Shown here: positions 5,979 through 64,000 of the stretch, piece by piece | Layout: each line of letters starts with the position of its first letter | Numbering within the stretch: position 1 is the first letter of the stretch | Origin: Dictyostelium discoideum | Taxonomy: Eukaryota | Assembly (NCBI GenBank): GCA_000004695.1 | Contig: CM000151.3 | Span: forward strand, 4,800,001 to 4,864,000 | Length of the DNA: 64,000 nt | Direction of reading: 5' to 3' | Position numbers and translations under genes: made by a program | Notes under the pieces: model-generated | Told to the model about the DNA's origin: nothing | The model's database searches: none | Seen by the model: only the letters and a program-made list of their open reading frames with translations

Positions 5979-6030
<52 letters not shown>

Positions 6031-8419: not shown

Positions 8420-8470
<51 letters not shown>

Positions 8471-25156: not shown

Positions 25157-25194
<38 letters not shown>

Positions 25195-25762
25195 ACAAAA
25201 TACAAATAATGGTACATTTTTAACACCATTACCTGTATTAACTAATAGTAGTACTGGTTTGGGAAAAAGTATTGATTGGTTATATACAAACACCTCAAAT
25301 ACCGACTCACATAATATAAATTCAAGTAGTAATAAAGTTACAAAACTTTCAAATGGATTTTCTTTATTAAATCAAGATGGTACTCAATCACCATCATGCT
25401 TTTTAAATTTATCCTCAACTGGTAACCACGAAGATCCTGTACAAGTTCCAATGAACAATAATCCACAAGATCTCTTATTCCAATTTAATATTTCACCACA
25501 ATTACAATCACAAAATAATAATAGTAGTAATAATAATAATAACAATAATAACAATGGTAGTAATACTCCATTAAATGGTAGTAATGGTAGTAATAATAAT
25601 TATTCATCACCAATTTCACCAGTACCACAATACCAACACTCTGCTGGTTCTTCACCAATCCAAGAGTATCCATATTATTCACCATCATCATCACCCCATT
25701 CAAATGAATCAACCTCACCAATTACAGTTATTAAAGATAGTGGTAGTATTATAAATCCAATC

Positions 25763-25815
<53 letters not shown>

Positions 25816-26902
25816 TAATAATAACAATAATAATAATAATAAAAACAATTTAAATAATAATACATTCCAATTTTCATCATTAAAAAGTACAACTGGTATT
25901 GCACCACCATTACAAACCGATTATCATTTATTATATAATTTTGTTCAACAAAATTTTTCTGGAAAACCAGAAGATTCATTATTAAACCAAACTTTAAATA
26001 ATAATAATAATAATAATAATAACAATAATAATAATAATAATAATACAACAATCCAAACTTCACCACAACCACTTGTTTTACCACAAATTCAAAATCCATT
26101 TTTACCATATAATATTTCGACTCCAATTTCAGTTCCAAATAATATTTTATCATCAGCTCAATCATCAACAAATTCATCACCAAACAACAACAACAATAAT
26201 AATAATAATAATAACAATATTTTTTCAACTGTTAATAATAATAATAATCTCGTAAATAATAACAGTAATAATATGGAATTAGATGTAGATAAACCATTTT
26301 CACAAGAAAAATTTTATTTACACTTAAAATCAATTGTACCAAGTTTTAATGAAAATTTTGAAGCATCATCTGAATCTGCACAATCTGAATCATCTCAAGA
26401 AAGTGATTATGATGCACTCAATGAACGTAATAGTGGTGTTAAGAAGAGAGGTAGAGATGAAGATCAAATCGATACATCTGGTCAAGTTGTTTTATCACGT
26501 GAACATGTTTTGAAATTATCAAGTAAAGAAATTGAAGAATATGTTTCACGTTTAAAGATGCACCATATTCTTACTCAAGCCGAGGAAAAAGAATTGAAAA
26601 AACAAAGACGTTTAGTAAAGAATCGTGAATATGCTTCACAATCTCGTTCTCGTAGAAAGATTTATGTTGAGAATATTGAAACAAAACTTCAAAAAACAAA
26701 TCAAGATTGTGCTTCAATTAAATCTCAATTAAATTCAGTTAAAGAGGAAAATAAAGCCTTAAAGAAACAATTGTACAGTTTAACTAATACTCTTAAAAGT
26801 AATCCTTCTTTAGCTGAAGCATTTGGAAAAATTTTCTCTCCAATAGGTAATAATAAAACTTCTTCTGCTACATTATTTGTAAGTTTTATTTATTTAATTT
26901 TA

Positions 26903-26943
<41 letters not shown>

Positions 26944-27492
26944 AAATAAAAAAAATATACTAACTTTTTTATAATTTTTAGGTATTTTTCTTTTTATTTA
27001 CATTTACATTTTTATTCCAATCTTCTACAGTTACCTTTAATTCAGAGTATGTTTTATTTTTTTTTAAAATACCATTAGCGTTCATAAAATTTATATTAAT
27101 TTTTTTTTTTTTTCTCTTTTTATAGTAGGGTATCTTCAATTCAACGTAATCTTTTAAGTTTAGAAGAAACTCAAGCAACAGAATGGAACATAAAGAGAGC
27201 CATTCTTGAAGAAACTAAACAATATGTCGATTCTTTGTTAACCTCCTTATATACTTCAAAACTACAATCTTTATCAGAAACTCCTTTAGATACATCTAAT
27301 TATATCATCAACAACAACAATAACGAATCAACTTCCGAAACAACAACAAACAACAAAGTAGTTTCGACATCTAGTGATGATATTTCAAATGTTTTATCAA
27401 ATCTTTCTGTTTCCGATAAAGAAGTTCCTCAAAAGTGTAAAGATTCATCTGATTTAAAATGTGATTCTCCCCCACTTTCACCTTTAAATTAA
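24947..27492 (+). CDS. bZIP transcription factor. Proposed exons 24947..26878, 26982..27046 and 27126..27492; only exon 1 is certain.
   Basis: Canonical bZIP basic region KKQRRLVKNREYASQSRSRRK followed by a leucine zipper (L-x6-L heptads: LQKTNQDCASIKSQLNSVKEENKALKKQLYSL). Long poly-N tracts precede it. Exon 1 ends at GTAAGT (26879). Intron 1 is 103 nt and has TACTAAC at 26958..26964 and acceptor TTTTTAG. Inferred exon 2 encodes the hydrophobic segment VFFFLFTFTFLFQSSTVTFNS. A GTATGT donor at 27047 joins in phase to an acceptor at 27124/27127 and the ORF …RVSSIQRNLLSLEETQATEWNIKRAILEE…SPLN*. Confidence 0.6.
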
Positions 27493-37000: not shown

Positions 37001-39855
37001 ATAGTTCTCACCAATCTACTGATTGTTCATTACCATTTATTCAATGTCCATTAAATGGTGGTAAAGTTTGTAGCAGTTTTGGTACTTGCGATAATCAAAT
37101 TGGTATTTGTACATGTGATGGTTCTCATCAAGGTAATGATTGTTCAAAAACTTTTGTTCAATGTCCATCAGTTAATTCAAATTCATGTAGTGGATTTGGT
37201 TCATGTAATAATGAAACTGGTGCTTGTTCATGTAATTCAGGTAGATTAAATAATGATTGCTCTGGTATTCAATGTGATGTTCCAAATTGTAATAGCCATG
37301 GTACATGTAATAATACTATTGGAAAATGTCAATGTGATAGTTCTCATCAAGGTAGTGACTGTAGTACTCCTTTTATTGATTGTCCATCTATAAATTTAAA
37401 TGATTGTAGTGGATTTGGTTCATGTAATAATCAAACTGGTACATGTACTTGTAATTCAGGTAAAACTTTATCAGATTGCACAGGTATTCAATGTAGTGTC
37501 CCAGATTGTAATGGTCATGGTACATGTGATACAAATATTGGTAAATGTCAATGTGATAGTTCCCATCAAGGTGCTGATTGTTCATTACCATTGGTTCAAT
37601 GTCCATTATATGGTGGTAAAGTTTGCGGTAATTTTGGTACTTGTAATAATCAAACTGGTGTTTGTTCATGTGATAGTTCTCATCAAGGTAGTGACTGTTC
37701 ATCACCATTTGTTAAATGTCCAACTGTAAATTCAAATGATTGTAGTGATTTTGGTTCATGTAATAATCAAACAGGTTCATGTAGTTGTGATAGTTCACAT
37801 CAGGGTGCTGATTGTTCATTACCATTTATTCAATGTCCAATATATTCAAATTCTTTATGTGGTGGTTCATCATTTGGCTCATGTAATAATCAAACTGGTG
37901 TTTGTACCTGTGATGGTTCTCAACAAGGTGCTGATTGTTCATTACCACTAATTCAATGCCCATCAATAAATTCAAAAGATTGTAGTGGTTTTGGTTCATG
38001 TAATAATGAAACTGGTATTTGTTCATGTAATTTAGGTAGATTAAATAATGATTGCTCTGGTATTCAATGTGGTTCTCCAAATTGTAATGGTCATGGTACA
38101 TGTGATACTACTCTTGGTGTATGTAAATGTGATAGTTCTCATCAAGGTAATGATTGTTCATTACCATTTATTAAATGCCCATCTATTAATTCAAATGATT
38201 GTAGTGGATTTGGTTCATGTAATAATCAAACTGGAGTTTGTTCATGTAATTCAGGTAGAGCTTTATCAGATTGTTCAGGTATTGAATGTAGTGTTCCAAA
38301 TTGTAATAATGGAGGTGTTTGTGATACTAGTATTGGTAAATGTCAATGTGATAGTTCTCATCAAGGTAATGATTGTAATATTCCATTAATCCAATGTCCA
38401 AATTTATGTAGTGGATTTGGTTCATGCAATAATCAAACTGGTATTTGCTCATGTAATTCAGGTAGATTAAATAATGATTGTTCAGGTATTCAATGTGATG
38501 TTCCAAATTGTAATAGCCATGGTACATGTGACATTACTATTGGTAAATGTCAATGTTTAAAAAATACATGGTCAGGTTCAGATTGTTCAATTCCATATCA
38601 AGTTATTAGATCGGTTAATGAATCAACAACAGCAGGTGGTGAAGCAACTTTTGAAGGTGTTTTTGGAGATGTTCATCAAGGTATTAAAATGCAAATTGGT
38701 GGTATTGATTGTCCAATAATATTTAATTCATCAACTATTATTAAATGTATGGCACCAGAAGGTAACGGAATTAAAAAAGTAACATTATTCCAAAATGATA
38801 TTTATTATACCTATGATAAATATAAATATAAAGCAATTGAATTGTCATGTCCATCAAATTGTTTAGGTAATGGTATTTGTAATACATCAACTGGAGAATG
38901 TAAATGTAATTCAGGTTATGGATCATACGATTGTTCTCCAATAATCAATAATGGTGGTGGTGGTGGTTTAGGTGAAACCCCCAATAGTAATAGTAATAGT
39001 GGTGAACTAGTTATCCCACCAAAATCAAATACTACATTAAATGAAGAAACAGGTGGTACAAATATTGTTAATCAAAAAACAAATTTCCAAATTTACTTTA
39101 AATCACTTTATGAAATTGATTATAGTGGTCAAATCGTTAAAACATATAAATTAGAAAATAATTGGGTAATTAATAATGATTCAAATAACAATGATCAATG
39201 TACATTTACTCAAACTATTGATAATGGTTGTAATATTACATCTAGAATTGATGAAATAAATGATGAAAATGGTAAAAAATTTGAATTTGCAGGTACAAGT
39301 TTCACAGTTTCAAATGGAGGTATTAAATTTACAATCACCATTGATAATTATCAATATCAAAGTAATTTAAATACATTAACTTTAGATTTTGTATCATCAG
39401 TTGGTGAAATTCAAGATACTCAAAACAACAATGAATGTAATTCAAAAGATACTGAAATCGATACAAGTAATGTAAATGATTTATCATCATCAAATTTCAA
39501 TTATATTAAAATATCAAAGAACAACAAAATTCTAAGTGGTAGATTTATTAATAGATTGTTATCAAATGGTAAAGCTACATTCTTTACAACATCGGTTAGA
39601 AATGAAAGTAATTCAATCATTGTTTCATTAAATTTACCACATTGTTCACAATGTATTATTGATCCTGACTTTTCAGTATTATTATCATCAGATTTTGTTT
39701 CAAATTGTCCATCAGTTGTTGATAAACGTAAATCATATATTGTACCAGTTTCAGTTGTTGCTTCAGTTGTTGGTGCCGTATCAGTTGCTTCTGCTGGTTT
39801 CCTCATTCGTAAAAAAATGATTGAAAGAAAATTCTTTAAAACCTATAGTAATTAA
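33721..39855 (+). CDS. Large type-I membrane receptor-like protein: signal peptide, plant-type LRRNT cap, LRRs, about 25 EGF/tenascin-like Cys repeats, an IPT/TIG-like domain and a C-terminal TM. Exons 33721..33944, 34087..34305, 34437..35090 and 35196..39855.
   Basis: Exon 1 has the signal peptide and an LRRNT_2-like cap (…DCLINII…CSLTTWVTCDSTTGSVKS). Exons 2-3 have LRR-like L..L.L..N.L.G.IP units and end …LKNNKFTG. Exon 4 holds the 1511-aa ORF with a 40-aa unit repeated about 25 times (CSLPFIQCPLNGGKVCGGFGTCNNQTGVCTCDGSHQGADCS). An IPT-like segment is GGIDCPIIFNSSTIIKCMAPEGNG. The TM is VPVSVVASVVGAVSVASAGFLI followed by RKKMIERK. Splice phases are all consistent (donors GTATGT, GTAAAT, GTAACT; acceptors AAAAAG, CAATAG, TATAG). 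Confidence 0.75.
36540..38560 (+). repeat. Tandem array of about 120-bp coding repeats (EGF-like units) inside the LRR-EGF gene
   Basis: Near-identical DNA units such as gattgttcattaccatttattcaatgtccattaaatggtggtaaagtttgcggtggatttggtacttgtaataatcaaactggtgtttg recur about 17 times. They generate spurious ORFs on other frames and strands. Confidence 0.85.
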
Positions 39856-44838: not shown

Positions 44839-45336
44839 ATGATGTCCTATTCAATACAAGAGAGGACAAATAGTAATAATACTACCAATAGTATTAATAG
44901 TAATAATAATAATATTAATAATAATAATAATAATATTAATAATAATAATAATAATATTATTAATAATAATATAATGAATGGGAAACAACAACAACAAAAT
45001 TTTAATAATTGGATTTCTGGTAATAGTATCAGCATAAATCCAATTGGAAATAATAGTAATAATAATAATACAAGTAATTTAATTCATTTAAATAATGGTA
45101 GTGATATTTTAAGTGGAAGTGGAAGCACAAGTAGTAGATTTTTTGTAAATAATGGAAATGGTAAAGTTTTAGGTTTAAATAGTTTTAGTGCAATTGATTC
45201 ATTAGACTATAGAAATAAATTAGTGGGGCCTATACCTCAACCTCAACAATCTTTACAACAACCACCAAATTCTAATAATAATAATAATAATAATAGTATA
45301 AGTAATAATAGTAATAATAATATCAATAATAATATC

Positions 45337-45410
<74 letters not shown>

Positions 45411-45676
45411 TAACAATAATAATAATAATGATAATAATAGTAATTACCAACAACAACAATTATATATACAACAAAAATTATTACAACAACAAAATATATT
45501 TAATCAACCTTTTCACCATGATAATTTTATAAATTCATCTGAAGATATAAAGATAGCAACACAAACAGCAAATGCAAATTATATACAACAACAAATTCTT
45601 TTAAATGTAGCTTCTACAGGTGTAAATAATAATAATAATAATATAAATAGTAATAATAGTAATAATAATAGTAGTA

Positions 45677-45745
<69 letters not shown>

Positions 45746-46087
45746 GTAATAATAATAATAGTAGTAATAGTAATAATACTACAAATAATGGTAACAATAG
45801 TCAAAAATATAATAGTTTAAATGGTTCCAGTAATGGCACCAATAATTTTGTAAATAGTTTAAATAATGTAGATGATAATAATTTAAAAATAAATGGGATT
45901 TATAATATAAATAATAATAATAATATAAATAATAATAATAATATAAATAATAATAATAATAATAACAATAATAATAATAATAGTAATATAAATAAAAGTA
46001 ATATGAACAGTAATAGTAATAATAGTTTAAATGGTAATATTAATATTAATGGAAATAGTGCAAATATTATAAATAACAATAGTAGTA

Positions 46088-46162
<75 letters not shown>

Positions 46163-46432
46163 GTAATAATAATAATAATAATAATAGTAATAATAATATA
46201 AATGGATTGATAAATCATTCACCAAGTTTAGGTTTAAGACCAATTTCTCCATCAAATATATCTCAATTGTTTTCTATATCACAAATTGTTCAACCACCAA
46301 TATCTTCAGCGTTTGACATGGAAAATAATAATAAATATTCTTTTGATTATGACTTTGGTTTACCACAACCTCAATTTTTCACAACACAACCACCTCAACA
46401 ACAAAAAACTTTACAACAATTCCAATTACACC

Positions 46433-46494
<62 letters not shown>

Positions 46495-46798
46495 CTTCAC
46501 CAACAACAATTTAAACAACCAGTACCACAAAAATCACCACAAATCCTTCACCAGCCCTCAATTAGCAGTATTCACCAAAATAATAATAATAATAATAATA
46601 TCGATTTCTTATCACAACAAATCAACCAAATTCAGTTACAACAACAATCACCCAATATTCAACCATCAAATAAATCTCTTTCACCACCCCAAAATTTACA
46701 AAATGGTTTAAATAATAGCAATAATAATATAATTACAAATTATAGTACAAATAATAATAATAATAATAATAATACAAATAATAATTATAATAATAGTA

Positions 46799-46843
<45 letters not shown>

Positions 46844-48156
46844 GCAATAATACTAATATTACAGCTGCAACTGCCATTCAACAGGCAGCAGTAGCACAAC
46901 AACAAGCAGCTGCTGCTCAACAGGAACAGCTCAGACAAGAACAATTAAAACAACAAGAGCAAGCAAAACAACAACAAGAGCAAGCAAAACAGCAACAACA
47001 ACAACAATTATTACAACAACAAGAGCAAGCAAAACAACAACAGGAGCAAGCAAGACAACAACAAGAGCAAGCAAAAATTCAACAAGTTCAACCAACATCA
47101 TCGTCATCACCAACACCATCACCAACACCTTCACCAACATTATTGAATAGTAACCAAGATTTATCAAACTTTTTGGACGAAACAAACTTCCCAACATTAA
47201 ATAATTCAAATAAGGATTTAAGAAAGAGTCAAACTTCAACCATCAACATACCACAATCACCAGTTACAAATGGACTTTCATCTTCACAAGATGATAAATT
47301 GAAGAGCAGAAAGAAATTGGAAACAAGTCAAGGTGGTTTAAATAGTTCAAAAGATTCCTTGGCAACTGCCATCACCAAATCAATGGCTGCCAATTCATCA
47401 CCCACCAGTGTTACCACTACTGTCTCCATCAATGGTAGTGGTTCTAATAGTTTGAGTACAAGCGCAACAAATATTAACACCTCCACTCAAGAAAGTGAAA
47501 AAATCAAATTATCTTGGTTTGAATTCCAAACACTTTCAAATTCAATTGGAGATGGTGAAGATGAAGATCATTTACCAAGTAGAGTACTTTGGGTAGGAAA
47601 TATTGGTATGGACGTTTCAGAAGATGATTTGAAATATGAATTTGGCTCATTTGGTGAGTTAGAAAGTGTACGTATCTTACATAATAAATATTGTGCTTTT
47701 GTAAACTTTAAAGATACCAACGAAGCAATCAATGCTAAAAAAGGAATGCATAATCAAGTTTTGGGTAGCCAATACATCGTTGTAAACTTTAGACATCCAA
47801 AATCTGATGATTTTATCAATGGTGTCCCAGTTGTACCAATCACAACACCAGAAACCCTCAACTCTATATCAAGAGCAATTTACATTGGTAATGTAAGTGA
47901 TAACCTTCCAGAGAAGGAAATAAGAAAAGAATGTGAAAAATATGGTGAAATTGAAAGCATTCGTATCTTAAGAAAAAAAGCTTGTGCCTTTGTAAACTTT
48001 ATGAACATTCCAAATGCTACTGCTGCTTTACAAACTTTAAACGGTAAAAAATTAGGTGATACTATCGTTAGAGTTAATTATGGTAAAGTTAGTCAAAGTA
48101 CAACTAATACAAATTCAAATAATACTGGAAATAAGAAATCAAATAAAAAGAAATAA
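44839..48156 (+). CDS. N/Q-rich RNA-binding protein with two C-terminal RRM domains (1105 aa)
   Basis: RRM1 is VLWVGNIGMDVSEDDLKYEFGSFGELESVRILHNKYCAFVNFKDTNEAINAKKGMHNQVLGSQYIVVNF. RRM2 is IYIGNVSDNLPEKEIRKECEKYGEIESIRILRKKACAFVNFMNIPNATAALQTLNGKKLGDTIVRVNY. The N-terminal 800 aa are poly-N/poly-Q low complexity. Single ORF. Confidence 0.85.
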
Positions 48157-48527: not shown

Positions 48528-48960
48528 TTAAATATTTGGTTTAATAACAACTATAACATCATTATTTGATATATTAAAATCATTTGGGGTTAGATGAGGT
48601 GGTAGTTCAAGGCCGTTGTATTGAAATTTAAGTACATATTCAGTGGTAATTCCTAACTTTTGATAAATTTGACACATTAATTTACAAAGTAGAGCTTTGT
48701 TTGAAATTTTGAATACTAATTCTTCATTTAAATGATTGATATGACATTTAATATGAATAAAATGTTTTTCATTATCTTTACAAGTTGTATTTGTACTTGA
48801 GTTTGTATTTTCATTTTTATCATTTGAAAAAGTTTGTTGCTTTTCTTTTTCTTGTTCTTGAAGTGATGTTGATGTTTGTGGAATAGGGGTGAAGTTATTA
48901 TTAAGTTGTTGATTTTGTAATTCATTTGTAGTAAATTCATTATTATTATTTTTATTATCA

Positions 48961-49029
<69 letters not shown>

Positions 49030-49921
49030 TTTTTATTATTATTATTATTATCATTTGTATTATTATTATAATTATTATTATCATTTGTATTATTATAATT
49101 TGTAATTATATTATTAATAGTTTGAATTGGATTTAAACCAAAAGTCCAAATTGAAAGATTGGGTTGATCATTAAAGAATTTGGTATATAAATCCAAAGTG
49201 AAATAAAATCTTTCTAATTTAAATTTTTTTAATTGTCCAATTGAGATCATTTCAAAATTACCACCATCAATTGACATTGAGTTTGAGTATACTAAATTTA
49301 AACCGATTTGATCACAAAATTCTTTATAGATCTTAAGGTTTTCATAATGTTTTCTCCAAATTTCATCTAAAAAGTGAGGTGAAAAAATAAACTTTGAAAA
49401 TAAACCTTTTTCAAATACTTTTAATGTTAAGAATCTTGTGTATTCAGATTTGAAAATATTATATACTTTACTTGGTACATCCAATTCTTGTAAAATGTCT
49501 GCAATATTTATAGTTTTGTAAATCTTTCTTTCAATATCTAAAATTTCAATTCTCTTATTTAGTTTGTTTTCAAAAAATGAAATTTCAGAATCTAATTGTG
49601 ATGGAAATAATGAATTGGCTTCATTTGTACTTTTTGGTTTTTTAAATTCTACAATTGATAATTCTAATGATTCGGATTCACTAACTAACTCATTGTTAAT
49701 ACCATTTTCTGTTGTTGTTGCTGTTGCTGTTGTTGTTGTTGTTGTTGTCGTTTTAATGTTATTCTCTTCTGACTGCTTCATTATTTTACTTTCTTCATTA
49801 TTTTCATCTTTACCATTATAACTATCGTTAACTTTATTATTATTAGTTTGATTTATCTTTTTTAATTTTGTTGTTTGTTCTTCCTCAAAGGAGTTTTGTC
49901 TCTTCTTATTTCTGTTATGTA

Positions 49922-49973
<52 letters not shown>

Positions 49974-51359
49974 TTGATTATTATTATTATTATGATTATT
50001 ATTTTGATTATTATTTTGATTATTATTAAGAATAGATTCCCAAGGATTACCAGTTAATAAAAGTTTATAATAGGATTTTGGAGTGTCAGATGATTTATTT
50101 TCAGAGAAAATTTTTTGATTCGATAAAACTCTCTCTAATTTTGGTTTAAAAATATCTAATGAAAGATCTTGATTGATTAAACCAAGTAAATGTTTATGAA
50201 GATTAATGTAACCAATTAAATATTCTTTTTTAATGTATCCTCTTTCTTCATGAAAATTTCTTGAATTTAATTGCTGATGTAAAGCAAATGCAGAAATTGA
50301 TACAACCTTTTCAAATAAATAACTTGTTGGTGATAGTAAACCTTGTACCAATATTGGTGGTTTACCATATAAACATAAATAACATCTACAAACTAATATT
50401 ACATTTGGTAATGTTATATAAAATGAATTTTGGTTTGCTTTGATTTTACACTGATTGCAATGACATATTGGTTCATATGTTGGTAAATGAAAATTTTCTA
50501 ATCTTATCTCACTACTATTGCTCTTGCCACCACTAACACTTCCACTGCTGACATTACCACTCCTACTTCTACTCCTACTTATAATTCCACTACCAGCAAT
50601 ATTATTATTATTATTACTATTATTATTATTATCTTCACTATTATCTGATAATAACTGATTTAATTTACTTAATGTGTTAGGAATTCTAGATTCTAAAAAG
50701 TATTGGTATATAAGTTTTAATCTATTTAAATCAAAAGTATTTTTTAAATGTTGAGTTTCGGCATCAAATTTTTTAAATAGTTTTATTCTTGTCTTTATTT
50801 CATTGTCAGGAAAGGTGTCAACTATTTTACCTTTCCACATGTATGTATGATGATAGTCTCCATTATGACCACAAATAACCATTTGTATTTTACTTGATAT
50901 TAATTTTTTATCTGTTTCATTATTTTCAATATCTGTTACATCATTTTCAATATTAATTTCATGTTCATCATAATCATTATTATCATCATCTTCTTCTTTT
51001 TCTTCTTTTTCTTCTTTTTCTTCTTTTTCTTTTTCTTCTTTTTCTTCTTCTTCTACTACTACTAATTCTTCTTGTTCTTCTTTGATATGATTGTCTCTAT
51101 TATTAGCGGTGGTATTAATTTTATTTAAATTTTTAATTTTAGTTTCAGTTTGGTGTAAATTATTATCATCATCAATATCTTGAGTTTCATTGGAATTGCT
51201 TGCATGGTTTAAACTACTAAGTTTTCTTCTTATCCTTTTTAAAATTGAATTTCTCATACCACTATTATCTAAACCTAATTGTTTAGCTGCTTCTCTTATA
51301 TTTAGGTATGAGAGTTTTTCAATCTCTATATAATCTAAATGGAAAACATTTTTAGACAT
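48528..51359 (-). CDS. SAP-domain protein with a C-terminal ubiquitin-like (SUMO/Rad60-SLD-type) domain, 943 aa
   Basis: N-terminal SAP motif LSYLNIREAAKQLGLDNSGMRNSILKRIRRKL. An acidic EEKE repeat and poly-N follow. The C-terminal beta-grasp-like segment is FIHIKCHINHLNEELVFKISNKALLCKLMCQIYQKLGITTEYVLKFQYNGLELPPHLTPNDFNISNNDVIVVI. Single ORF. Confidence 0.75.
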
Positions 51360-53649: not shown

Positions 53650-54790
53650 TTAAGCCATTTCAACTGGTATAGAGTCACATGTTGGGCAACATTGACCTGG
53701 TAATTTTGTACCAACACATTCTGGGCACATAATTCCAGTACAATCTGGGTTTGGTCTACAAATTGGACAACATCTCTCTGGTGGAGTGTAAAGTGACTCG
53801 TTGGCATTACATTTTGGAACAGGACATTGAACAGCTGCACAATTTACTGGTGGACATTTGTAGCAACACTCATTTGGATTCTTTGTTGGTTTTGCACCAT
53901 CTTCACAAACTGGCATGGCACATTTTACAGTGGTACAATCTGGTCCAACTGGAATTGTATCACAAGTTGGACAACATTGACCTGGTTCAATGTGACCTAC
54001 ACATGCTGGACATATGGCGTCGGTGCAATTTGGATTTGGTCTACAAATTGGACAACATTTTCCTGGTGGTGTGTAAAGATGTTCATTTTCATTACACAAT
54101 GGTCTCATACATCTAACGGTACTGCAATCAACTGCTGGACATTTGTAGCAACATTCATTTGGGTTTTTGATTGGTTTGGAACCATCTTCACATACTGGCA
54201 TGGCACATTTTACAAGGGTGCAGTCTTGTTTACATCTATCACAACATTCACCTTCTGGTTTATAAGGTACCCATCCAATCATACAATCTACTATTGGACA
54301 TAAAGTATTTGTGCAATCTAATGTTGGGTTTGGTCTACAAATTGGACAACATCTCTCTGGTGGAGTGTAAAGTGACTCGTTGGCATTACATTTTGGAACA
54401 AGACATTGAACAGCTGCACAATTTACTGGTGGACATTTGTAGCAACACTCATTTGGGTTCTTTGTTGGGGTTGCACCATCTTCACATACTGGCATTGCAC
54501 ATTTTACAGTGGTACAATCTTGTTTACATTTTGTGCAACATTCACCCTCTGGTTTATAAGGGACCCATCCAATCATACAATCAACAATTGGACAAAGTAC
54601 TAATGCACAAGGATTAACTGGTTTCTTTACACATGTTGGACAACATTCACCAACTGGTACTTGTGAAATATATCCTGGTGCACATTTTGGAATTCCACAT
54701 TGAATTGCACTGCATTCTCTTTGACAAATTTGACAACATTGACTAAAAAAAAAAATAATATTATTAATAATTTTATTTTATTTTATTTTA

Positions 54791-56308: not shown

Positions 56309-57823
56309 TTATTTAACTCTTTTAAAATAAACCTTATATTCAACAAATACTTGACTTGATTCATAAACAATATATTCACGAAGTTGTAAAGCAGCTTTTG
56401 GACCATAATTTGGTTTTGATTCACCAATGACACTATTGTAAATATTGATATTATTTGGTTTCTTTGGTTCAGTTCTACGACCATTCCAAAATTGACCAGG
56501 ACCATTACCACGGAAAACATTTTCAACCAAGCAATCACCCATAACCACACGACAAACCAATAAACAAACTTCATCACTTGGTTTACATTTACAAGAGGTA
56601 GCTTGGAAACCACTACAAGTACAAGCACCTCCATGACAATATTGATTTGATTTTGATGAATTCTCTGCAAAGTAAAGCCCAGCACCAAACATACCATCCA
56701 AAGAGCAAAATCTTGGATCGAAACCAAACTTTGCAATACCAGCAACTGATGAAACGTTTAAACCATGGAATAAGAATAATTCATTGGCTTTCTTATCCAA
56801 TTCCGGACTACCAGGAATATTGGTGATAACACTATGAATTGGTGGACATGACCCATTGTTATCATCGAGAATCTTTTGTTTTCTTGCATGATAACTAACC
56901 CATAACATTGGATTTTGCACTCTAACAACACGGGTAACCTTTAAATCATTGAAAACAATTGGTGATAATGTACCCATACCTTTATGATTACTTGAAATGG
57001 TTTGACTAAATAATTTACTCATCCATTGGAACTCATTCTCATGTGGTTTCACATCAACCTCTTTATAATTCATTGAGTCTACATCTGTCCATGTATTTGG
57101 GCATTTTATAATACTTGAAATTGAAATTGTACTCATTGTTGATGTTAATGTTGGTTTTTGAGTTGTTGATATTGTTGCACCATTACTTGCTATCATTTGA
57201 CCTTTACTACTTGATCTTGTTACTGGTGCAGTTGATGTGGTGGTAGTAGTTGTGGGTGTTGCAGTAGTAGTAGTGGCATGAGAAGCGGCCATAGCATTCG
57301 CAGCAGTTGCAGCATTCGAAATCTGTTGTGATTTTGTTAATTTTTTCGCTGGTCTAACTTTTAATGGATCTTCTCTCTTTAAATTTCTTCTCTTGGATTC
57401 ATCATCATACCTTCTTTGTAACATATTTTGGAAATCAACAAAACGTTCTTTATCAACCTTTAATTTCTTTTTACCAATTGAAAATGCTTTCTCTAATTTC
57501 TTACGCATATTCATATCGTCATACTCTACCCAAACATCTTGATGACCACCACCTTTGCTTGGTCCACCACCTGAATCACCTGCCCAAAACCATCTTGCTA
57601 TATAATCTTCATCATCTTCATCATCATCACTATCATCACTAACATCACTATCACTACTATCACTACTACTATCACTATTCTCACTATCTGTATCACTATC
57701 ATCACTACTTATTATTTTTCTTCTTCTTTTTGATGTTGCATTTGTAGTTGGTGGTGGTAATGTTGATCCTGGTATACTTTTTTTTTTTTATTTATATAAG
57801 TATGTAATTATTATTATTATTAC

Positions 57824-57893
<70 letters not shown>

Positions 57894-58281
57894 TTTATTT
57901 TCATTTTTATACATACATTTCTTGTCTTTCAACAGTTCTCATTTTATTTAAATCATCATATCTTGTTTGAACCATTTTTTTAAAATCTATATATCTTTCT
58001 TTATCAAGTTTGAATCTTAAATATTTTAAAACTTTTGGTTTCAAAAGATGCATTTGATATTGAGATTCGATCTCTGAATTTAATTTACTATCATATTCTA
58101 CTAAAATATCTTGGGAAGCTCCAACTCCCGAATCACCTGCCCAACACCATTGAATCTTTTTTTGTGCAACAACAGCTGTTGCTGCAACTGGTATATTTAT
58201 AGTGGTTGGTATTGCTGTTGTTGCTGATGATGACTGTGTAACTGCATTTGATGCTGTCACTGGTTTCTTTTTTGGTGGCAT
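56309..58281 (-). CDS. WWE-WWE-PARP protein: two tandem WWE domains plus an ADP-ribosyltransferase (PARP) catalytic domain. Exons 57917..58281 and 56309..57776; intron 57777..57916.
   Basis: WWE1 is IQWCWAGDSGVGASQDILVEYD…YIDFKKMVQTRYDDLNKMRTVERQ. WWE2 is ARWFWAGDSGGGPSKGGGHQDVWVEYDD…FVDFQNMLQRRYDDESKRRNLKR. PARP H-Y-E signature: LFHG…, GLYFAENSSKSNQY, REYIVYE. Exon 1 ends at a GTATGT donor in phase 2. The acceptor AAAAAAG|TATACC restores the frame. The intron contains an (ATT)n run. The ORF upstream of 57514 is continuous, confirming the join. Confidence 0.8.
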
Positions 58282-58318
58282 TTAATTTTAATTTTTAATT
58301 TTTAATTTTTAATTTTTA

Positions 58319-58354
<36 letters not shown>

Positions 58355-58451
58355 CCAATTCAACAAAAATTATTATTATTATTATTATATATTTCTATTG
58401 TTTTCTATAAACTAAATAAAAAAAATATTAAAAAAAAATAATTTTAAAAAA

Positions 58452-58482
<31 letters not shown>

Positions 58483-58909
58483 GCGCAAAATTCAAAGAAA
58501 TATCCATTTTCAAATTAAAAAAATTAAAAAAATCTAATTCATTTTTTAATTAAAACAAATAATTATTATTGTTTTAATTTATAAATAGAATTTTTTTGTT
58601 GATTAAATATTTTGGAAAATAAACAACTTTATATTTTTTTTTTTTTTTTTTCAACGATTAATTTAGAAAAAAAAAAAATCGTTATTAAAATTCAAAACAC
58701 AAAATGAATGGTTATCATTTTTGATATTTTTTATTTTTTAATAAAAAATTTTATTTTTACAATTATATTTTTTTGTAATTGTTTTTTTATTTTTAAGAAT
58801 ACTTAAAGAAAAAATAGATTTAAAAAAAAATAAAAAAAAAAAAAAAACAAAATTGATTTGATTGAATTATCTTTTTTTTTTTTAACGTCAAATTTGGATC
58901 TATAAATAT

Positions 58910-59889: not shown

Positions 59890-61380
59890 GTGATTCAAGA
59901 AAAATTTGAAAAAATTGCTTTATCTTTTGAAAGTCCGAAATTAAATGAAATTAATTTTCATAAAAAGGTTAAAATTATCTATTTTTTAGATGATTATCAA
60001 CATGAAATAAAAAAAGAAATGTTACCAAGTTCAATTATTAGTATTATTTTTTATAATATTAAAAATATTTTATCAAGTGATAGTATACCAGATACTGTTA
60101 AATTTTTGGGTTTTAATGGATACAAACACCAAATTACCAATGAAATTGTTAAAGGTTCAGTTACATCATTGGGGGTAGGTGGTGACATGGGGTATCCATT
60201 GGATAAACATTTATTAAATGGTTCCTCAATCAAAACATTATGTTTTGATGGTAATTATTCACATCAAATTACAAATGATAGTATTATCGATCATTTAGAT
60301 TATTTATGTTTAATGAAAACCAAGTTTCCATTAAATGAAAAATCTTTAAAAAATCCATTAAATATTTATCCACCAACCATTCCAAAAAATATTTCTTTCT
60401 ATGAAACATATAAATTCCCAATACCTGGTACAATATTCCCAAAAATTGAATCCACCATAATTACATTTAATATTAATATAACTGATATTCGTCAACCAAT
60501 AACAAGTAAACTTTTCCAAGATTTACCAATTAACTATAATGTTTATATTGGATGGGGTTATAGACACAAATTAGATGAATGTACCATTGATAGTAAAATA
60601 AGATTTTTGGGTATTGGCGATGTTGTTCATCCAGTACCAGAAACATTCCTTGGTATAAGGGTTAAGTTTTATAGTGGCTATTCTCACCAAATTAAACCTT
60701 TCCCTAATAATGCATCATTGCGTGAATTAGCTTTGGGTAATGTTAAATATCCAATAACCAAAGATACAATACCATCACCATGGGGTGTTGGTGAATTATC
60801 AATTGATAAAGGCTATGATTTTAAACTTACACCAGACCTATTTGAAAATGTAAGAGCTTTAAAACTTATTGATATTAAATCAACTGTTTTTACCAAACAT
60901 TCATTACCAAAATCAAATTGTGTCCTTGCTAAAGTTTCATTAATATCTTTACAAATCCCATTTGATTTAAGCTTTTTCCCAACTGATATCATTAATACAA
61001 TGTTAATTCATAATGTTTCTCAAGTGATTGGCACTAATCAATTACCAAAATCATTAACATCTTTATCACTAATTAAAGTAAAATTGGATCCAAAATTAAC
61101 TATCCCAAAATCAGTATCACATTTAAAAATTGAAGAAATTGATAGACCACTTACAAAGGAATCAATCCCAAACAATTTAGAAGTTTTTGAACTTCTTAAT
61201 TATAAATTCCCAATATCAAAGGAATTATTCCCAGATACCGTTCATTACATTGTAATTGGTGAAACAATTAATCCATTCACAATCGAAATGATTCCCACAA
61301 GTTTAAAACATTTAGTTAGTGCACATGATTATAAATTTTTACCATTTGATAAACCATTACTAAAGTATTATTATCAATAG
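59890..61380 (+). CDS. FNIP-repeat protein (Dictyostelium-type FNIP repeats), about 496 aa; the true start is uncertain.
   Basis: Repeated roughly 22-aa units of the form lP.s…L.fg..FN..I, for example LPSSIISIIFYNIKNIL…IPDTVKFLGFNGYKHQITNEIVKGSVTSLGVGGDMGYPLDKHLLNGSSIKTLCFDGNYSHQI. The ORF-track start is a GTG. The first in-frame ATG lies about 43 codons in, so the initiation site or a 5' exon is unresolved. Confidence 0.75.
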   Translation: MIQEKFEKIALSFESPKLNEINFHKKVKIIYFLDDYQHEIKKEMLPSSIISIIFYNIKNILSSDSIPDTVKFLGFNGYKHQITNEIVKGSVTSLGVGGDMGYPLDKHLLNGSSIKTLCFDGNYSHQITNDSIIDHLDYLCLMKTKFPLNEKSLKNPLNIYPPTIPKNISFYETYKFPIPGTIFPKIESTIITFNINITDIRQPITSKLFQDLPINYNVYIGWGYRHKLDECTIDSKIRFLGIGDVVHPVPETFLGIRVKFYSGYSHQIKPFPNNASLRELALGNVKYPITKDTIPSPWGVGELSIDKGYDFKLTPDLFENVRALKLIDIKSTVFTKHSLPKSNCVLAKVSLISLQIPFDLSFFPTDIINTMLIHNVSQVIGTNQLPKSLTSLSLIKVKLDPKLTIPKSVSHLKIEEIDRPLTKESIPNNLEVFELLNYKFPISKELFPDTVHYIVIGETINPFTIEMIPTSLKHLVSAHDYKFLPFDKPLLKYYYQ

Positions 61381-62328: not shown

Positions 62329-64000
62329 TTAAAAATTTAATTTAACATTTAAAACTTTTGAAAAGAAATTAAAGATATCAGCTATTTCATTATTTTGTTT
62401 TGATAAACCTTTACCAGCACCATGACCAGAATCTTTATCAACTCTAATTAAAAGTGGAGTATCAACTTTTTTACCAAGTTGATATTGTAATTCAGAGATG
62501 AATTTATAAGAGTGAGCAGGAATGACACGATCATCATGGTCACCAGTACAAAGCATAATTGATGGATATTGATTTGAATCCTTTGGGACATTATTTAGAG
62601 GAGAATATTTAATGAGTACATCAAAATCATCAGGATTATCACTTCTACCATAATCAGAGACCCAATTACTACCGATAGTATGAAGATGGAATCTTAGCAT
62701 ATCCATAACACCAACGTCTGCTACAACACATTTAAATAGATCAGGACGTTGATTTGAAATTGCACCCATTAACAAACCACCATTACTACCACCTCTTACG
62801 GCCAATTTGTTTTGGTTTGTATAGTTTTCCTTTATCAAATATTCAGCGGCACCAATAAAATCATCAAAGCAATTTTGCTTATTCTTTTTTGAACCAGCCT
62901 CATGCCAAGCTTTACCATACTCACCACCACCTCTAATGTTTGCAATTACAAAGATACCATTGAATTTATTTAAAAAGTAAATATTTCTAATTGAGAATGA
63001 TTGAGTGTAAGAGATATTGAAACCACCATAACCAGTCATATAGGTTGGAGCATTACCACTGGTGATATCTGTGGTCTTCTTATAGGCTATAAACATTGGA
63101 ATCTTTGTTTTATCCTTTGGAGATTCATAAAAGACTTGTTTACATTCATAATCTGATGATTTGAAGCCTTCAATGTGTGGTTCTTTAAAGAGTAACAATT
63201 CATCATTCTTTGAATCCATATAATAAGTTACCGATGGTGAAACTAAATTTGAAAAGTTTATAAAGATATGATCATGATACTCAGTGGCTGATAATGAAGC
63301 ACTTCCAGGGCCTGGTAATTTAATATCCTTTAAATATTTACCATTGAAATCATATACTTCAATGATATCTTGAACATGTTTTTGATAGGAAACGTAGAAT
63401 TTCTCTTGAGAGGAACGACTAACCGATTCCAATACATAGTCTTTCTCTGGAATGATCTCTTTAAACTCTAATTTACTCTTTGAATTTGGTACGATTGGTT
63501 GATCATCATTCAATTGAATTGAGATTAATCTATTGAATGGTGCAGATAAATTGGTTAAAAAGAAATATTCACCTTGTTTAGTATTTGTAATATAATAATA
63601 ACAAGCATCGAAATTATCTATGAGGGCCTCGACTTTAAAGGCTGATTTATTTGCAATTGCCTCTTGGAAATTTCTAATTACATATAGATTATGCTCAACA
63701 TTGCAGTCCCTGAAAGCGCTGATAAACAAAGAGCTATGGTCATGAGAGAACTCAGTACCAAATATCCATTGTGGGTTCTCTGGACATTCGAAAACCACTC
63801 TATCAAACGACTCATTGGCATCACCTAATTTATGATAATAAACTTTATTATTCAAGTTGGTGTCGGTTTCAGTGCCTTTATCATCATCGGATACTTTTTC
63901 CGGTTTTGGATATCGATTATAGATGAAACCAGTCTCATTCTCATCCCATTTAATCGAAGTAAATTTACACCAATTTATTGAATCTGGTAGATCCACAACT
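62329..64000 (-). CDS. dpoA: Prolyl oligopeptidase (S9A). The 3' 555 codons are present; the N-terminus lies beyond the window end.
   Basis: Catalytic Ser motif GGSNGGLLMGA, Asp…DHDDRVIPAHSYKF, and the C-terminal …GHGAGKGLSKQNNEIADIFNFFSKVLNV. These match POP/PREP family C-termini (human PREP …ADHDDRVVPLHSLKF…). A beta-propeller region lies upstream. The dpoA symbol is given because this is the classic S9A POP of Dictyostelium, but it was not verified. Confidence 0.85.
   Translation of the reverse strand, partial: VVDLPDSINWCKFTSIKWDENETGFIYNRYPKPEKVSDDDKGTETDTNLNNKVYYHKLGDANESFDRVVFECPENPQWIFGTEFSHDHSSLFISAFRDCNVEHNLYVIRNFQEAIANKSAFKVEALIDNFDACYYYITNTKQGEYFFLTNLSAPFNRLISIQLNDDQPIVPNSKSKLEFKEIIPEKDYVLESVSRSSQEKFYVSYQKHVQDIIEVYDFNGKYLKDIKLPGPGSASLSATEYHDHIFINFSNLVSPSVTYYMDSKNDELLLFKEPHIEGFKSSDYECKQVFYESPKDKTKIPMFIAYKKTTDITSGNAPTYMTGYGGFNISYTQSFSIRNIYFLNKFNGIFVIANIRGGGEYGKAWHEAGSKKNKQNCFDDFIGAAEYLIKENYTNQNKLAVRGGSNGGLLMGAISNQRPDLFKCVVADVGVMDMLRFHLHTIGSNWVSDYGRSDNPDDFDVLIKYSPLNNVPKDSNQYPSIMLCTGDHDDRVIPAHSYKFISELQYQLGKKVDTPLLIRVDKDSGHGAGKGLSKQNNEIADIFNFFSKVLNVKLNF

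What the first reader, a model, noticed from the sequence alone, without database searches (positions are those of the whole stretch)
56309..58281. Tandem-WWE PARP with a Cys-rich insertion in the catalytic domain
Two WWE domains (WCWAGDSG… and WFWAGDSGGG…) are split by a 140-nt intron and precede a PARP catalytic domain with an intact H-Y-E triad (LFHG / YFAENSSKSNQY / REYIVYE). Between the conserved Tyr and the following beta-strand (CLLVCRVVMG) lies a roughly 22-residue insertion with five Cys (CHGGACTCSGFQATSCKCKPSDEV). This could be a metal-binding or redox loop, which would be unusual for PARP domains. WWE domains bind iso-ADP-ribose, so the protein could read and write poly-ADP-ribose. 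The first WWE is only revealed once the upstream 124-aa ORF is joined through GTATGT…AG.
Basis: partly seen in the sequence, partly recalled or inferred. Interest (0 to 1): 0.6.

Follow-up and report, generated by a model that had tools for sequence, protein, structure and literature searches.

The report
Dictyostelium pARTf: tankyrase-like PARP, zinc loop
This is the annotated Dictyostelium discoideum gene pARTf, a two-WWE ADP-ribosyltransferase whose "odd" cysteine-rich loop sits where animal tankyrases have their known zinc-binding loop, so it is mostly explained; the one new point is a variant ligand pattern that is widespread in protists.

Summary
The minus-strand gene has exon 1 at 58281-57917, a 140-nt GTATGT..AG intron, and exon 2 at 57776-56309. 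It encodes 610 aa identical to D. discoideum AX4 XP_644292.1/Q86KC8, which is pARTf (DDB_G0274389). An intronless public read contig carries the exact junction.

The protein has two WWE domains and a PARP domain with H459/Y490/E589. Five Cys lie in residues 502-525.

The catalytic domain is tankyrase-like by sequence (PDB E=1e-19, against 5e-7 for the next family). It is also tankyrase-like by predicted fold: the top 50 Foldseek hits are all tankyrase. The Cys-rich stretch falls in the loop where tankyrases bind a structural zinc, and its length differs from theirs by one residue. It is therefore not unusual for this branch of PARPs.

Only H503, C507, C517 and C519 are conserved, giving H-x3-C-x9-C-x-C. 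Tankyrase has C-x2-H-x4-C-x2-C. A sister pattern, C-P-x-C...C-x-C, is common in protist relatives.

The WWE domains keep the core ligand residues (RNF146 Q153 and R163 equivalents) but not the iso-ADP-ribose specificity residues.

Verdict: a known gene carrying a new variant of a known zinc loop. Interest is moderate to low.

The parts
57917..58281 (-). Exon 1 of pARTf (ATG at 58281; codons 1-121 plus 2 nt of codon 122)
   Evidence: Exact protein match to XP_644292.1. Transcript contig L001 aligns 58346..57913.
57777..57916 (-). Intron: 140 nt, GTATGT...AG, almost pure (AAT)n, 5% GC
   Evidence: Absent from the intronless contig L001, which holds the exact junction 50-mer.
56309..57776 (-). 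Exon 2 of pARTf (third base of codon 122 to the stop codon at 56311..56309)
58282..58346 (-). 5' UTR, at least 65 nt, AT-rich
   Evidence: The transcript contig L001 starts 65 nt upstream of the ATG and aligns to 58346.
57925..58152 (-). WWE domain 1 (residues 44-119)
   Evidence: Pfam PF02825 best stretch 44-119. AF2 folded module 41-125, pLDDT about 87-93. No significant PDB sequence hit.
57611..57742 (-). Acidic Ser/Asp-rich disordered linker between the WWE domains (residues 134-177)
   Evidence: pLDDT below 50. Only sub-threshold low-complexity Pfam hits (Rpc31, DNA_pol_phi).
57368..57595 (-). WWE domain 2 (residues 183-258), with a Gly-rich insert GGGPSKGGGHQD
   Evidence: Pfam WWE second stretch. 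The only significant PDB hits are the RNF146 WWE, 3v3l E=6.8e-5. AF2 module 181-260.
56312..57121 (-). Tankyrase-like ADP-ribosyltransferase (PARP) catalytic domain (residues 341-610)
   Evidence: Pfam PARP 370-605. phmmer against PDB: TNKS2 1.8e-19, next family PARP14 5.5e-7. AF2 pLDDT 81.9, pTM 0.85. Foldseek top 50 all tankyrase 1/2.
56765..56767 (-). Catalytic His459 (LFHG)
   Evidence: Invariant in A1 and A2, at least 90% in A3.
56672..56674 (-). Catalytic Tyr490 (GLYFA)
   Evidence: Invariant in A1, A2 and A3.
56375..56377 (-). Catalytic Glu589 (LREYIVY), aligned to the Glu of TNKS2 'LAEYVIY'
   Evidence: HMMER alignment with TNKS2. TNKS2 catalytic triad H1031/Y1060/E1138 per PMC12940019. 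At least 90% conserved.
56567..56638 (-). Cys-rich loop, residues 502-525; predicted zinc-binding loop
   Evidence: Aligns onto the tankyrase zinc loop region. Conservation.
56633..56635 (-). His503, predicted zinc ligand 1
   Evidence: At least 90% in A1. In 69 non-redundant relatives with Cys(+6) and a later C-x-C, every one has His(+2) or Cys(+3).
56621..56623 (-). Cys507, predicted zinc ligand 2
   Evidence: At least 90% conserved in A1 and in the 58-sequence A3.
56591..56593 (-). Cys517, predicted zinc ligand 3
   Evidence: At least 90% conserved in A1, A2 and A3. Aligned to TNKS2 C1089 by HMMER.
56585..56587 (-). Cys519, predicted zinc ligand 4
   Evidence: At least 90% conserved in A1, A2 and A3.

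Best explanation
The locus is the Dictyostelium discoideum gene pARTf (DDB_G0274389, chromosome 2). It is a two-exon gene for a 610-aa protein built as three folded modules joined by disordered linkers: WWE1, an acidic linker, WWE2, a Thr/Ser-rich linker, and the catalytic domain.

The catalytic module is a tankyrase-type ADP-ribosyltransferase with an intact H459/Y490/E589 triad, so it most likely transfers ADP-ribose from NAD+. Poly- or oligo-ADP-ribosylation is possible but not shown.

The Cys-rich stretch after Tyr501 is this lineage's version of the structural zinc-binding loop that tankyrases carry in the same place. The predicted ligands are His503, Cys507, Cys517 and Cys519 (H-x3-C-x9-C-x-C). 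This is the same 3Cys+1His composition as tankyrase's C-x2-H-x4-C-x2-C, in a different order and spacing and without the tankyrase G-loop. Its inferred role is to hold the loop next to the NAD+ pocket in shape. As reported for tankyrase, it may also make the enzyme sensitive to oxidation. C502 and C509 are lineage-specific extras.

The two WWE domains, the second most like the RNF146 WWE, probably bind an ADP-ribose-derived ligand. That would tether the enzyme to already modified proteins or to its own automodification, giving reader-writer coupling. Their specificity for iso-ADP-ribose as opposed to ADP-ribose is open.

Shown here: gene structure, transcript junction, domain identity, conservation pattern. 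Inferred: zinc binding, enzymatic activity, WWE ligand.
For: Identity and gene model:
- Exact match to XP_644292.1/Q86KC8.
- The Citarelli supplement lists DDB0232241 = DDB_G0274389 = pARTf at chr2 4856309-4858281 with the same peptide.
- The junction 50-mer is present in an intronless contig.

Tankyrase-type catalytic domain:
- PDB phmmer gives TNKS2 1.8e-19 and TNKS1 about 1e-16, against PARP14 5.5e-7 and PARP1/2 about 1e-5.
- The AF2 model has pLDDT 81.9 and pTM 0.85.
- The Foldseek top 50 are all tankyrase, E about 1e-15, target TM 0.79-0.85.
- GMFGAGLYFAENSSKSNQY is nearly identical to TNKS2.

Zinc loop:
- HMMER aligns the loop onto the TNKS2 zinc loop.
- The tankyrase loop is an established CHCC zinc site needed for structural integrity (PMC8941426).
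- H503, C507, C517 and C519 are at least 90% conserved in 20 homologues, while C502 and C509 vary.
- C507, C517 and C519 are at least 90% conserved in 58 diverse relatives with 7% mean column identity, on a par with H459, Y501 and E589.
- Of 69 non-redundant relatives with Cys(+6) and a later C-x-C, all have His(+2) or Cys(+3). This is the pattern expected of a four-ligand site with an interchangeable first ligand.
- The sister pattern C-P-x-C-G...C-x-C resembles a classic zinc knuckle (established knowledge).
- The spacer between the ligand pairs varies from 9 to 22 residues while the ligands stay fixed.
- The Naegleria TNKS-like ART is likewise reported with a zinc motif and no G-loop (PMC9688111 Fig. 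S3).

WWE domains:
- Pfam finds two stretches.
- WWE2 hits only the RNF146 WWE significantly.
- The Q153 and R163 equivalents are invariant.
- 15 of 58 relatives carry WWE and 3 of 58 carry PBZ, another PAR reader.

Modular build: three confident modules and pLDDT below 50 in the linkers.
Against: - No metal or activity measurement exists, and I could not inspect model coordinates to check ligand geometry.
- Loop pLDDT is only about 67-73.
- Ligand positions do not superpose one-to-one on tankyrase. In the HMMER alignment only C517 pairs with a tankyrase ligand (C1089). C509, which is not conserved, pairs with C1081, and F512 sits opposite H1084. Homology of the sites, as opposed to two zinc sites evolved in the same loop, is therefore inferred.
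- The WWE residues that give RNF146 its iso-ADPr specificity are not conserved. WWE1 has no significant match to any solved WWE.
- An H-Y-E triad does not guarantee polymerase activity. From my own knowledge, not checked here, PARP3 and PARP4 carry H-Y-E but act as mono-transferases.
Confidence: 0.65

Rival explanations
1. The Cys cluster is primarily a redox switch. Either it forms reversible disulfides, or it is a zinc site whose main purpose is to be oxidised. Hydrogen peroxide would then turn the transferase off.
For: Tankyrase-1's zinc-coordinating Cys are reported to be oxidised by H2O2, with zinc release and loss of activity (PMC5489516). The D. discoideum group has extra Cys in and beside the loop: C502, C509, C526, C530, C537.
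Against: - The conserved set is 3 Cys plus 1 His, or 4 Cys with a CPxC knuckle. That is typical of zinc coordination rather than disulfide pairs.
- The extra Cys are not conserved.
- The protein has no signal peptide-like start and carries basic NLS-like stretches (PPKKKP, KRRRK), so it should sit in a reducing compartment (inference).
- Sowa and Lehtio conclude the tankyrase motif has a structural role (PMC8941426).
Confidence: 0.12
2. The protein is a mono-ADP-ribosyltransferase or a pseudo-enzyme. Its WWE domains serve as protein-protein modules or bind a non-PAR nucleotide, so there is no read-write coupling on poly-ADP-ribose.
For: - WWE residues equivalent to RNF146 Y107, R110 and W114 are W, D and V/I.
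- A Trp at the Tyr107 position and acidic residues in the distal-phosphate region are features of HUWE1 and TRIP12, which prefer ADPr over iso-ADPr (PMC11269756).
- WWE1 is divergent.
- The SAM domain that strongly boosts tankyrase activity is absent (PMC8941426; Pfam).
Against: - The H-Y-E triad and the NAD+-site motifs are intact and nearly invariant across the family.
- The catalytic domain's nearest solved relatives are true polymerases.
- The WWE core residues, the Q153 and R163 equivalents, are invariant.
- Relatives repeatedly recruit PAR/ADPr readers: WWE in 15 of 58 and PBZ in 3 of 58.
Confidence: 0.2
3. The Cys-rich stretch is a lineage-specific, functionally neutral insertion, or a chance clustering of Cys, in D. 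discoideum.
For: Two of the five Cys (C502, C509) are indeed restricted to close relatives.
Against: - The chance of such clustering is about 0.005.
- H503, C507, C517 and C519 are conserved across Dictyostelia and other Amoebozoa (Thecamoeba, Stenamoeba, Luapelamoeba), CRuMs (Rigifila), Ancyromonadida (Fabomonas) and a kinetoplastid (Apiculatamorpha).
- The loop is matched in length by tankyrase.
Confidence: 0.02

Closest known systems
Animal tankyrases (TNKS1/PARP5a, TNKS2/PARP5b; Citarelli clade 4) - catalytic ART domain with the CHCC zinc-binding loop
   Same: - Best sequence and fold match.
- Near-identical GMFGAGxYFAENSSKSNQY donor-site motif.
- H-Y-E triad, and no PARP1-type helical regulatory domain.
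- A Cys/His-rich loop of the same length (within one residue) between the second Tyr and the CRV strand, with 3Cys+1His conserved.
   Different: - No ankyrin repeat clusters and no SAM domain; two WWE domains instead.
- Ligand order and spacing are H-x3-C-x9-C-x-C, not C-x2-H-x4-C-x2-C.
- No Gly-rich G-loop.
- About 20 extra residues between the CRV strand and the catalytic Glu.
- Left unplaced in any PARP clade by Citarelli 2010.
Naegleria fowleri tankyrase-like ART (NfTNKSL, XP_044559609.1; Sowa and Lehtio 2022)
   Same: A protist tankyrase-like ART domain with a putative zinc motif and no G-loop (PMC9688111). It shows that the motif is not restricted to true tankyrases.
   Different: NfTNKSL is reported to have no other domains; pARTf has two WWE domains. 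I did not retrieve its sequence, so I could not assign its ligand pattern to class A or class B.
RNF146/Iduna WWE domain (PDB 3V3L), the poly-ADP-ribose reader that acts downstream of tankyrase
   Same: It is the only significant solved-structure match of WWE2, E=6.8e-5. The QxR...RR core, with the Q153 and R163 equivalents, is shared.
   Different: - No RING domain.
- Tyr107, Arg110 and Trp114 are replaced by Trp, Asp and Val/Ile.
- WWE2 has a Gly-rich insert in the beta-loop-beta region.
Animal WWE-containing PARPs (clade 3E: PARP7/TIPARP, PARP11, PARP12, PARP13/ZAP; also PARP14)
   Same: WWE domain(s) N-terminal to a C-terminal PARP domain.
   Different: - Those enzymes have H-Y-I/L/V triads (Citarelli 2010). 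pARTf keeps Glu.
- The catalytic domain is much closer to tankyrase than to PARP14, 1e-19 against 5e-7.
- The two WWEs are separated by a disordered acidic linker of about 55 residues and show no confident inter-domain packing (pTM 0.46).

Membership tests
PARP/ARTD catalytic domain (Pfam PF00644) | Profile match above the curated threshold | tested here: met
   70.7 bits against a cut-off of 26.7, residues 370-605.
PARP/ARTD catalytic domain (Pfam PF00644) | H-Y-E catalytic triad | tested here: met
   H459, Y490 and E589 are present and conserved. E589 aligns with the Glu of TNKS2 'LAEYVIY'.
PARP/ARTD catalytic domain (Pfam PF00644) | NAD+-dependent ADP-ribosyl transfer activity | not testable with these tools
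   Needs an enzyme assay.
Tankyrase (PARP5a/b, clade 4) | Catalytic domain most similar to tankyrase among PARPs | tested here: met
   phmmer against PDB: TNKS2 1.8e-19, next family 5.5e-7. Foldseek top 50 are all tankyrase.
Tankyrase (PARP5a/b, clade 4) | N-terminal ankyrin repeat clusters | tested here: not met
   No ankyrin Pfam hit at E<=1.
Tankyrase (PARP5a/b, clade 4) | SAM polymerisation domain | tested here: not met
   No SAM Pfam hit. The AF2 model shows only WWE, WWE and ART modules.
Tankyrase (PARP5a/b, clade 4) | CHCC zinc motif with C-x2-H-x4-C-x2-C spacing, preceded by the G-loop | tested here: not met
   The loop is present and of equal length. The conserved residues are H-x3-C-x9-C-x-C, and there is no G-loop.
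Tankyrase-like ART with a zinc-binding loop (broad sense, including NfTNKSL) | Four conserved Cys/His ligands in the loop after the second donor-site Tyr | tested here: met
   H503, C507, C517 and C519 are at least 90% conserved. All 69 relatives tabulated have a complete four-ligand set.
Tankyrase-like ART with a zinc-binding loop (broad sense, including NfTNKSL) | Actual zinc occupancy | not testable with these tools
   Needs metal analysis or an experimental structure. The tool does not expose model coordinates.
WWE domain (Pfam PF02825) | Profile match above threshold, in two copies | tested here: met
   55.8 bits against a cut-off of 21.1, two stretches. Both fold confidently in AF2.
iso-ADP-ribose-specific WWE (RNF146 type) | Adenine/proximal-phosphate residues Gln153 and Arg163 | tested here: met
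   Q and R are invariant in all 16 family WWE segments aligned.
iso-ADP-ribose-specific WWE (RNF146 type) | Tyr107 hydroxyl, with Arg110 and Trp114 contacting the distal ribose and phosphate | tested here: not met
   W, D and V/I occupy these columns. The roles of these residues are taken from PMC11269756.
Clade 3E WWE-PARPs (PARP7/11/12/13) | Third triad residue replaced (H-Y-I/L/V), with mono-ART-type catalytic domain affinity | tested here: not met
   Glu is retained, and the catalytic domain is far closer to tankyrase.

The most novel reading that the evidence does not exclude
The pARTf-type enzyme would be a surviving form of an ancient, pre-metazoan "self-reading" tankyrase-type writer. 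In it, an RNF146-like WWE reader and a zinc-loop ART are fused in one chain.

This architecture occurs in Dictyostelia, Thecamoeba (Amoebozoa) and Rigifila (CRuMs). Relatives with the same loop pattern, whose domain architecture I did not resolve per protein, occur in Ancyromonadida and a kinetoplastid.

The animal tankyrase-RNF146 partnership would then be the split, two-protein descendant of this coupling. The tankyrase CHCC motif would be one derived variant of an ancestral H/C-C-C-C zinc loop that doubles as an oxidation sensor.
Probability: 0.15. Interest if true: 0.6.

Novelty: new variant of a known kind. Interest (0 to 1): 0.35.

Why it matters
The tankyrase zinc loop has been described as unique to tankyrases, and its function is still debated: structural, or redox-regulatory. 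Until recently only one non-animal example had been noted, in Naegleria.

This locus shows that a genetically tractable model organism, Dictyostelium, carries a tankyrase-type catalytic domain with a rearranged ligand set (HCCC). It also shows that two related ligand patterns are widespread in protists. Together these give an evolutionary series for asking which features of the loop matter.

The fusion with RNF146-like WWE domains makes the writer-reader coupling testable in a single protein. None of this changes current understanding of PARPs. It places a known but uncharacterised gene in its correct family context.

Tried and rejected
- Alternative acceptor AG two codons downstream (exon 2 starting at 57768): it runs into a stop within about 20 codons by manual translation of the sequence, so rejected. 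Intron retention gives a stop after 124 aa.
- "Cwf15/Cwc15 domain" reported for this protein by Citarelli 2010: current Pfam gives no such hit. The acidic linker gives only sub-threshold low-complexity matches, Rpc31 and DNA_pol_phi. I treat it as a compositional artefact.
- WWE1 against PDB: nothing significant; ZAP WWE2 scored E=0.84.
- Wang et al. 2012 (PMC3278890) is not held. The RNF146 residue roles come from PMC11269756 instead. The RNF146 sequence I recalled from memory was verified as 100% identical to 3v3l_A.
- The AFDB Foldseek library was unavailable.
- Text searches for DDB_G0274389 found nothing. The Perina supplement held as text did not contain pARTf, so the "unusual grouping" in that paper could not be examined further.
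- Neighbouring genes and a tRNA scan show no functional link to ADP-ribosylation, which is expected for a eukaryotic chromosome.
- Zinc-ligand geometry in the AF2 model could not be measured because coordinates are not exposed.
Full report
**What is at the coordinates.** The window is extremely AT-rich (22% GC overall) and the coding exons are 31-34% GC. On the minus strand an ATG at 58281 opens a 365-nt exon that ends at 57917. A 140-nt intron follows (57916..57777). It begins GTATGT, ends AG, is almost pure (AAT)n at 5% GC, and puts a stop in frame at once. Exon 2 runs from 57776 to the stop at 56311..56309. Joining them gives 1833 nt in frame and a 610-aa protein.

That protein is an exact full-length match to Dictyostelium discoideum AX4 XP_644292.1 / EAL70087.1 / UniProt Q86KC8. 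The supplement of Citarelli et al. 2010 lists DDB0232241 = DDB_G0274389 = "pARTf, chromosome 2, position 4856309 to 4858281" with the same peptide. The window is therefore chr2 4,800,001-4,864,000, and the finding's coordinates are exactly the annotated gene.

A 1902-nt contig assembled from public reads (Logan SRR24091729_1301) is intronless, starts 65 nt upstream of the ATG, and contains the exact 50-mer across the predicted 57917|57776 junction.

**Domains.** Pfam finds two WWE stretches (55.8 bits, cut-off 21.1) and a PARP catalytic domain (70.7 bits, cut-off 26.7). A full-length AlphaFold2 model shows three confident modules: 41-125, 181-260 and 341-610. They are separated by segments with pLDDT below 50 (1-39, 134-177, 261-337), and the overall pTM is 0.46. 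The protein is thus beads on a string, with no confident packing between the two WWE domains. WWE1 lies wholly within exon 1, and the intron sits just after it.

**The catalytic domain is tankyrase-type.** A phmmer search of PDB sequences with residues 346-610 gives these E-values:
- tankyrase-2: 1.8e-19
- tankyrase-1: about 1e-16
- PARP14/15, the next family: 5e-7 to 3e-6
- PARP1/2: about 1e-5

The motif GMFGAGLYFAENSSKSNQY is almost identical to TNKS2. An AlphaFold2 model of residues 340-610 has pLDDT 81.9 and pTM 0.85. Its 50 best Foldseek matches in the PDB are all tankyrase 1/2 catalytic domains, with E about 1e-15 and target TM 0.79-0.85. H459, Y490, Y501 and E589 are present, and E589 aligns with the Glu of TNKS2 'LAEYVIY'.

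The protein is nevertheless not a tankyrase in the strict sense, because it has no ankyrin repeats and no SAM domain. This agrees with the literature. [quoted passage not shown]

**The Cys-rich stretch.** Residues 502-525 (CHGGACTCSGFQATSCKCKPSDEV) hold 5 of the protein's 12 Cys. The chance that any 24-aa window does so is about 0.005.

HMMER aligns this stretch onto the tankyrase loop [20 protein letters not shown]. That loop is the crystallographically established Cys-His-Cys-Cys zinc-binding motif (TNKS2 C1081/H1084/C1089/C1092). [quoted passage not shown] It is also reported to be oxidation-sensitive (PMC5489516).

From the conserved Tyr to the CRV strand, the two proteins differ in length by one residue. 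The stretch is therefore an "insertion" only relative to PARP1-type domains.

**Which residues matter.**
- In 20 homologues (Dictyostelia, other amoebae, environmental sequences), H503, C507, C517 and C519 are at least 90% conserved. C502 and C509 are not: C509 is A, N, S or other residues outside the D. discoideum group.
- In 58 much more diverse relatives (mean column identity 7%), C507, C517 and C519 remain at least 90% conserved. That is on a par with H459, Y501 and E589.
- An all-against-library HMMER search found 2514 relatives at E<=1e-3.
- Among the best 150 plus the earlier hits, the loop after the SNQY anchor falls into four patterns:
  - Class A, Y-x-H-x3-C...C-x-C, the pARTf type.
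  - Class B, Y-x2-C-P-x-C-G...C-x-C, which resembles a zinc knuckle.
  - The tankyrase pattern, C-P-x-H-x4-C-x2-C, preceded by the G-loop.
  - A short loop without ligands.
- A tabulation that did not presuppose the first ligand took 69 non-redundant sequences with Cys at +6 and a later C-x-C. Every one has His at +2 (28) or Cys at +3 (41). None lacks both.
- The spacer between the two ligand pairs varies from 9 to 22 residues while the ligands stay fixed.

This is the signature of a four-ligand metal site with an interchangeable first ligand. I infer that H503, C507, C517 and C519 bind one zinc ion.

The site is not a positional copy of the tankyrase motif. In the HMMER alignment only C517 pairs with a tankyrase ligand (C1089), and the tankyrase G-loop is missing. 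The same has been reported for the Naegleria fowleri tankyrase-like ART, which has the zinc motif but no G-loop (PMC9688111 Fig. S3). That paper does not mention Dictyostelium or Amoebozoa. No searchable paper holds DDB_G0274389 in its text.

**Distribution.** Source names place the patterns as follows:

| Pattern | Organism | Group |
|---|---|---|
| WWE + class A | Thecamoeba quadrilineata | Amoebozoa |
| WWE + class A | Rigifila ramosa | CRuMs |
| Class A | Stenamoeba stenopodia | Amoebozoa |
| Class A | Luapelamoeba hula | Amoebozoa |
| Class A | Fabomonas tropica | Ancyromonadida |
| Class A | Apiculatamorpha spiralis | Kinetoplastea |
| Class B | Planoprotostelium fungivorum | Amoebozoa |

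One Apiculatamorpha isoform is auto-annotated "K10799 TNKS". Of the 58 relatives scanned, 15 carry WWE and 3 carry PBZ, another poly-ADP-ribose reader. Single cases carry RING, BRCT, a PARG-like domain and others. The tankyrase-type ART with a zinc loop is thus an old and widespread eukaryotic module that has repeatedly been joined to ADP-ribose readers.

**The WWE domains.** WWE2's only significant solved-structure matches are the RNF146 WWE (3v3l, E=6.8e-5). WWE1 has none. The RNF146 sequence I used was verified as identical to 3v3l_A, with numbering index 1 = residue 99.

In an alignment of 16 family WWE segments with RNF146, the Gln153 and Arg163 equivalents are invariant. Tyr107 is Trp, Arg110 is Asp and Trp114 is Val/Ile in all of them, and WWE2 has a Gly-rich insert in that beta-loop-beta region. 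According to PMC11269756, Tyr107, Arg110, Trp114 and Lys175 confer iso-ADPr specificity. In the ADPr-preferring HUWE1 and TRIP12, a Trp replaces Tyr107 and the distal-phosphate region carries acidic residues.

Binding of an ADP-ribose-type ligand is therefore plausible. Specificity for iso-ADP-ribose, and hence true poly-ADP-ribose reading, is not established.

**Most likely mechanism.** pARTf is a probable nuclear protein; the nuclear location is inferred from the PPKKKP and KRRRK basic motifs. It is an NAD+-dependent ADP-ribosyltransferase of the tankyrase type. A structural zinc site (H503/C507/C517/C519) stabilises the loop adjoining the donor site. Two flexibly tethered WWE domains would bring the enzyme to ADP-ribosylated targets or to its own modification. 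The gene model, domain identities and conservation are shown here. Zinc binding, activity type and WWE ligand are inferred.

The rivals are:
- a redox-switch role for the loop, which is compatible with a zinc site;
- mono-transferase activity with WWE domains that do not read PAR;
- a neutral lineage-specific insertion, which the conservation data refute.

**Verdict.** The gene and its WWE-WWE-PARP architecture are already known. The "unusual" loop is the counterpart of a known tankyrase feature. What appears not to have been described is the HCCC variant in Dictyostelium and the breadth of the class A and class B zinc-loop patterns among protists. I rate it a new variant of a known kind, with interest 0.35.

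Noticed in passing
window 1-64000: The window corresponds to D. discoideum chromosome 2, about 4,800,001-4,864,000. This follows from the pARTf coordinates 4856309-4858281 in the Citarelli 2010 supplement, which match window 56309-58281.
   Followed up: partly
window 5683-9360 (+): A 1225-aa ORF encodes a hybrid histidine kinase: HisKA, HATPase_c and a response-regulator receiver domain.
   Followed up: no
window 35320-39855 (+): A 1511-aa ORF carries many EGF/teneurin-type EGF repeats and ComC beta-sandwich and supersandwich domains. It is a ComC-like Dictyostelium extracellular protein.
   Followed up: no
window 44839-48156 (+); 48528-51359 (-); 53650-54576 (-): A 1105-aa ORF has C-terminal RRM domains. 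Two further long ORFs (943 aa and 308 aa) have no Pfam match at E<=1e-5.
   Followed up: no
window 19660-22302 (-); 24947-26974 (+); 59890-61380 (+); 62329-63996 (-); 10741-12195 (-): Other neighbours are an LRR protein, a bZIP transcription factor, a FNIP-repeat protein, a prolyl oligopeptidase (S9) fragment ORF and an amino-acid transporter ORF. No tRNA genes are found in the window.
   Followed up: no
window 57611-57742 and 56900-57330 (-), compared with P0001, P0026, P0027, P0029, P0030: pARTf length varies among D. discoideum isolates: 607, 610, 611, 620, 621 and 631 aa. The differences seen in alignment A1 and in the translation of contig L001 fall in the acidic Ser/Asp linker and the Thr-rich linker. 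This looks like repeat-length polymorphism in the disordered regions.
   Followed up: partly
window 57520-57570 (-), residues 191-202: WWE2 carries a Gly-rich insert, GGGPSKGGGHQD, in the loop that contacts the distal phosphate in RNF146. Many family WWE2-type domains share it (GGGPxKGGGHQD). Its role is unknown, and it could be a phosphate-binding element.
   Followed up: partly
L001 1882-1902: The Logan transcript contig ends in Illumina adapter sequence (AGATCGGAAGAGC...). This creates an artificial C-terminus (…KRDRKSVV) in the called 611-aa protein P0029.
   Followed up: yes
relatives P0036-P0150: Many protist tankyrase-like ART domains carry a C-P-x-C-G...C-x-C pattern in the same loop (42 of the sequences examined). 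Some are fused to PBZ, RING, BRCT or a PARG-like domain. This wider family seems not to be described beyond the single Naegleria example.
   Followed up: partly
window 58300-58400 and 58440-58500 (-): Upstream of the ATG lie long (AAT)n/(ATT)n arrays, an (AAATT)n-like array ('aaattaaaaattaaaaatt…') and a poly-T run of more than 30 nt. Part of this region is in the 5' UTR of the transcript contig.
   Followed up: no
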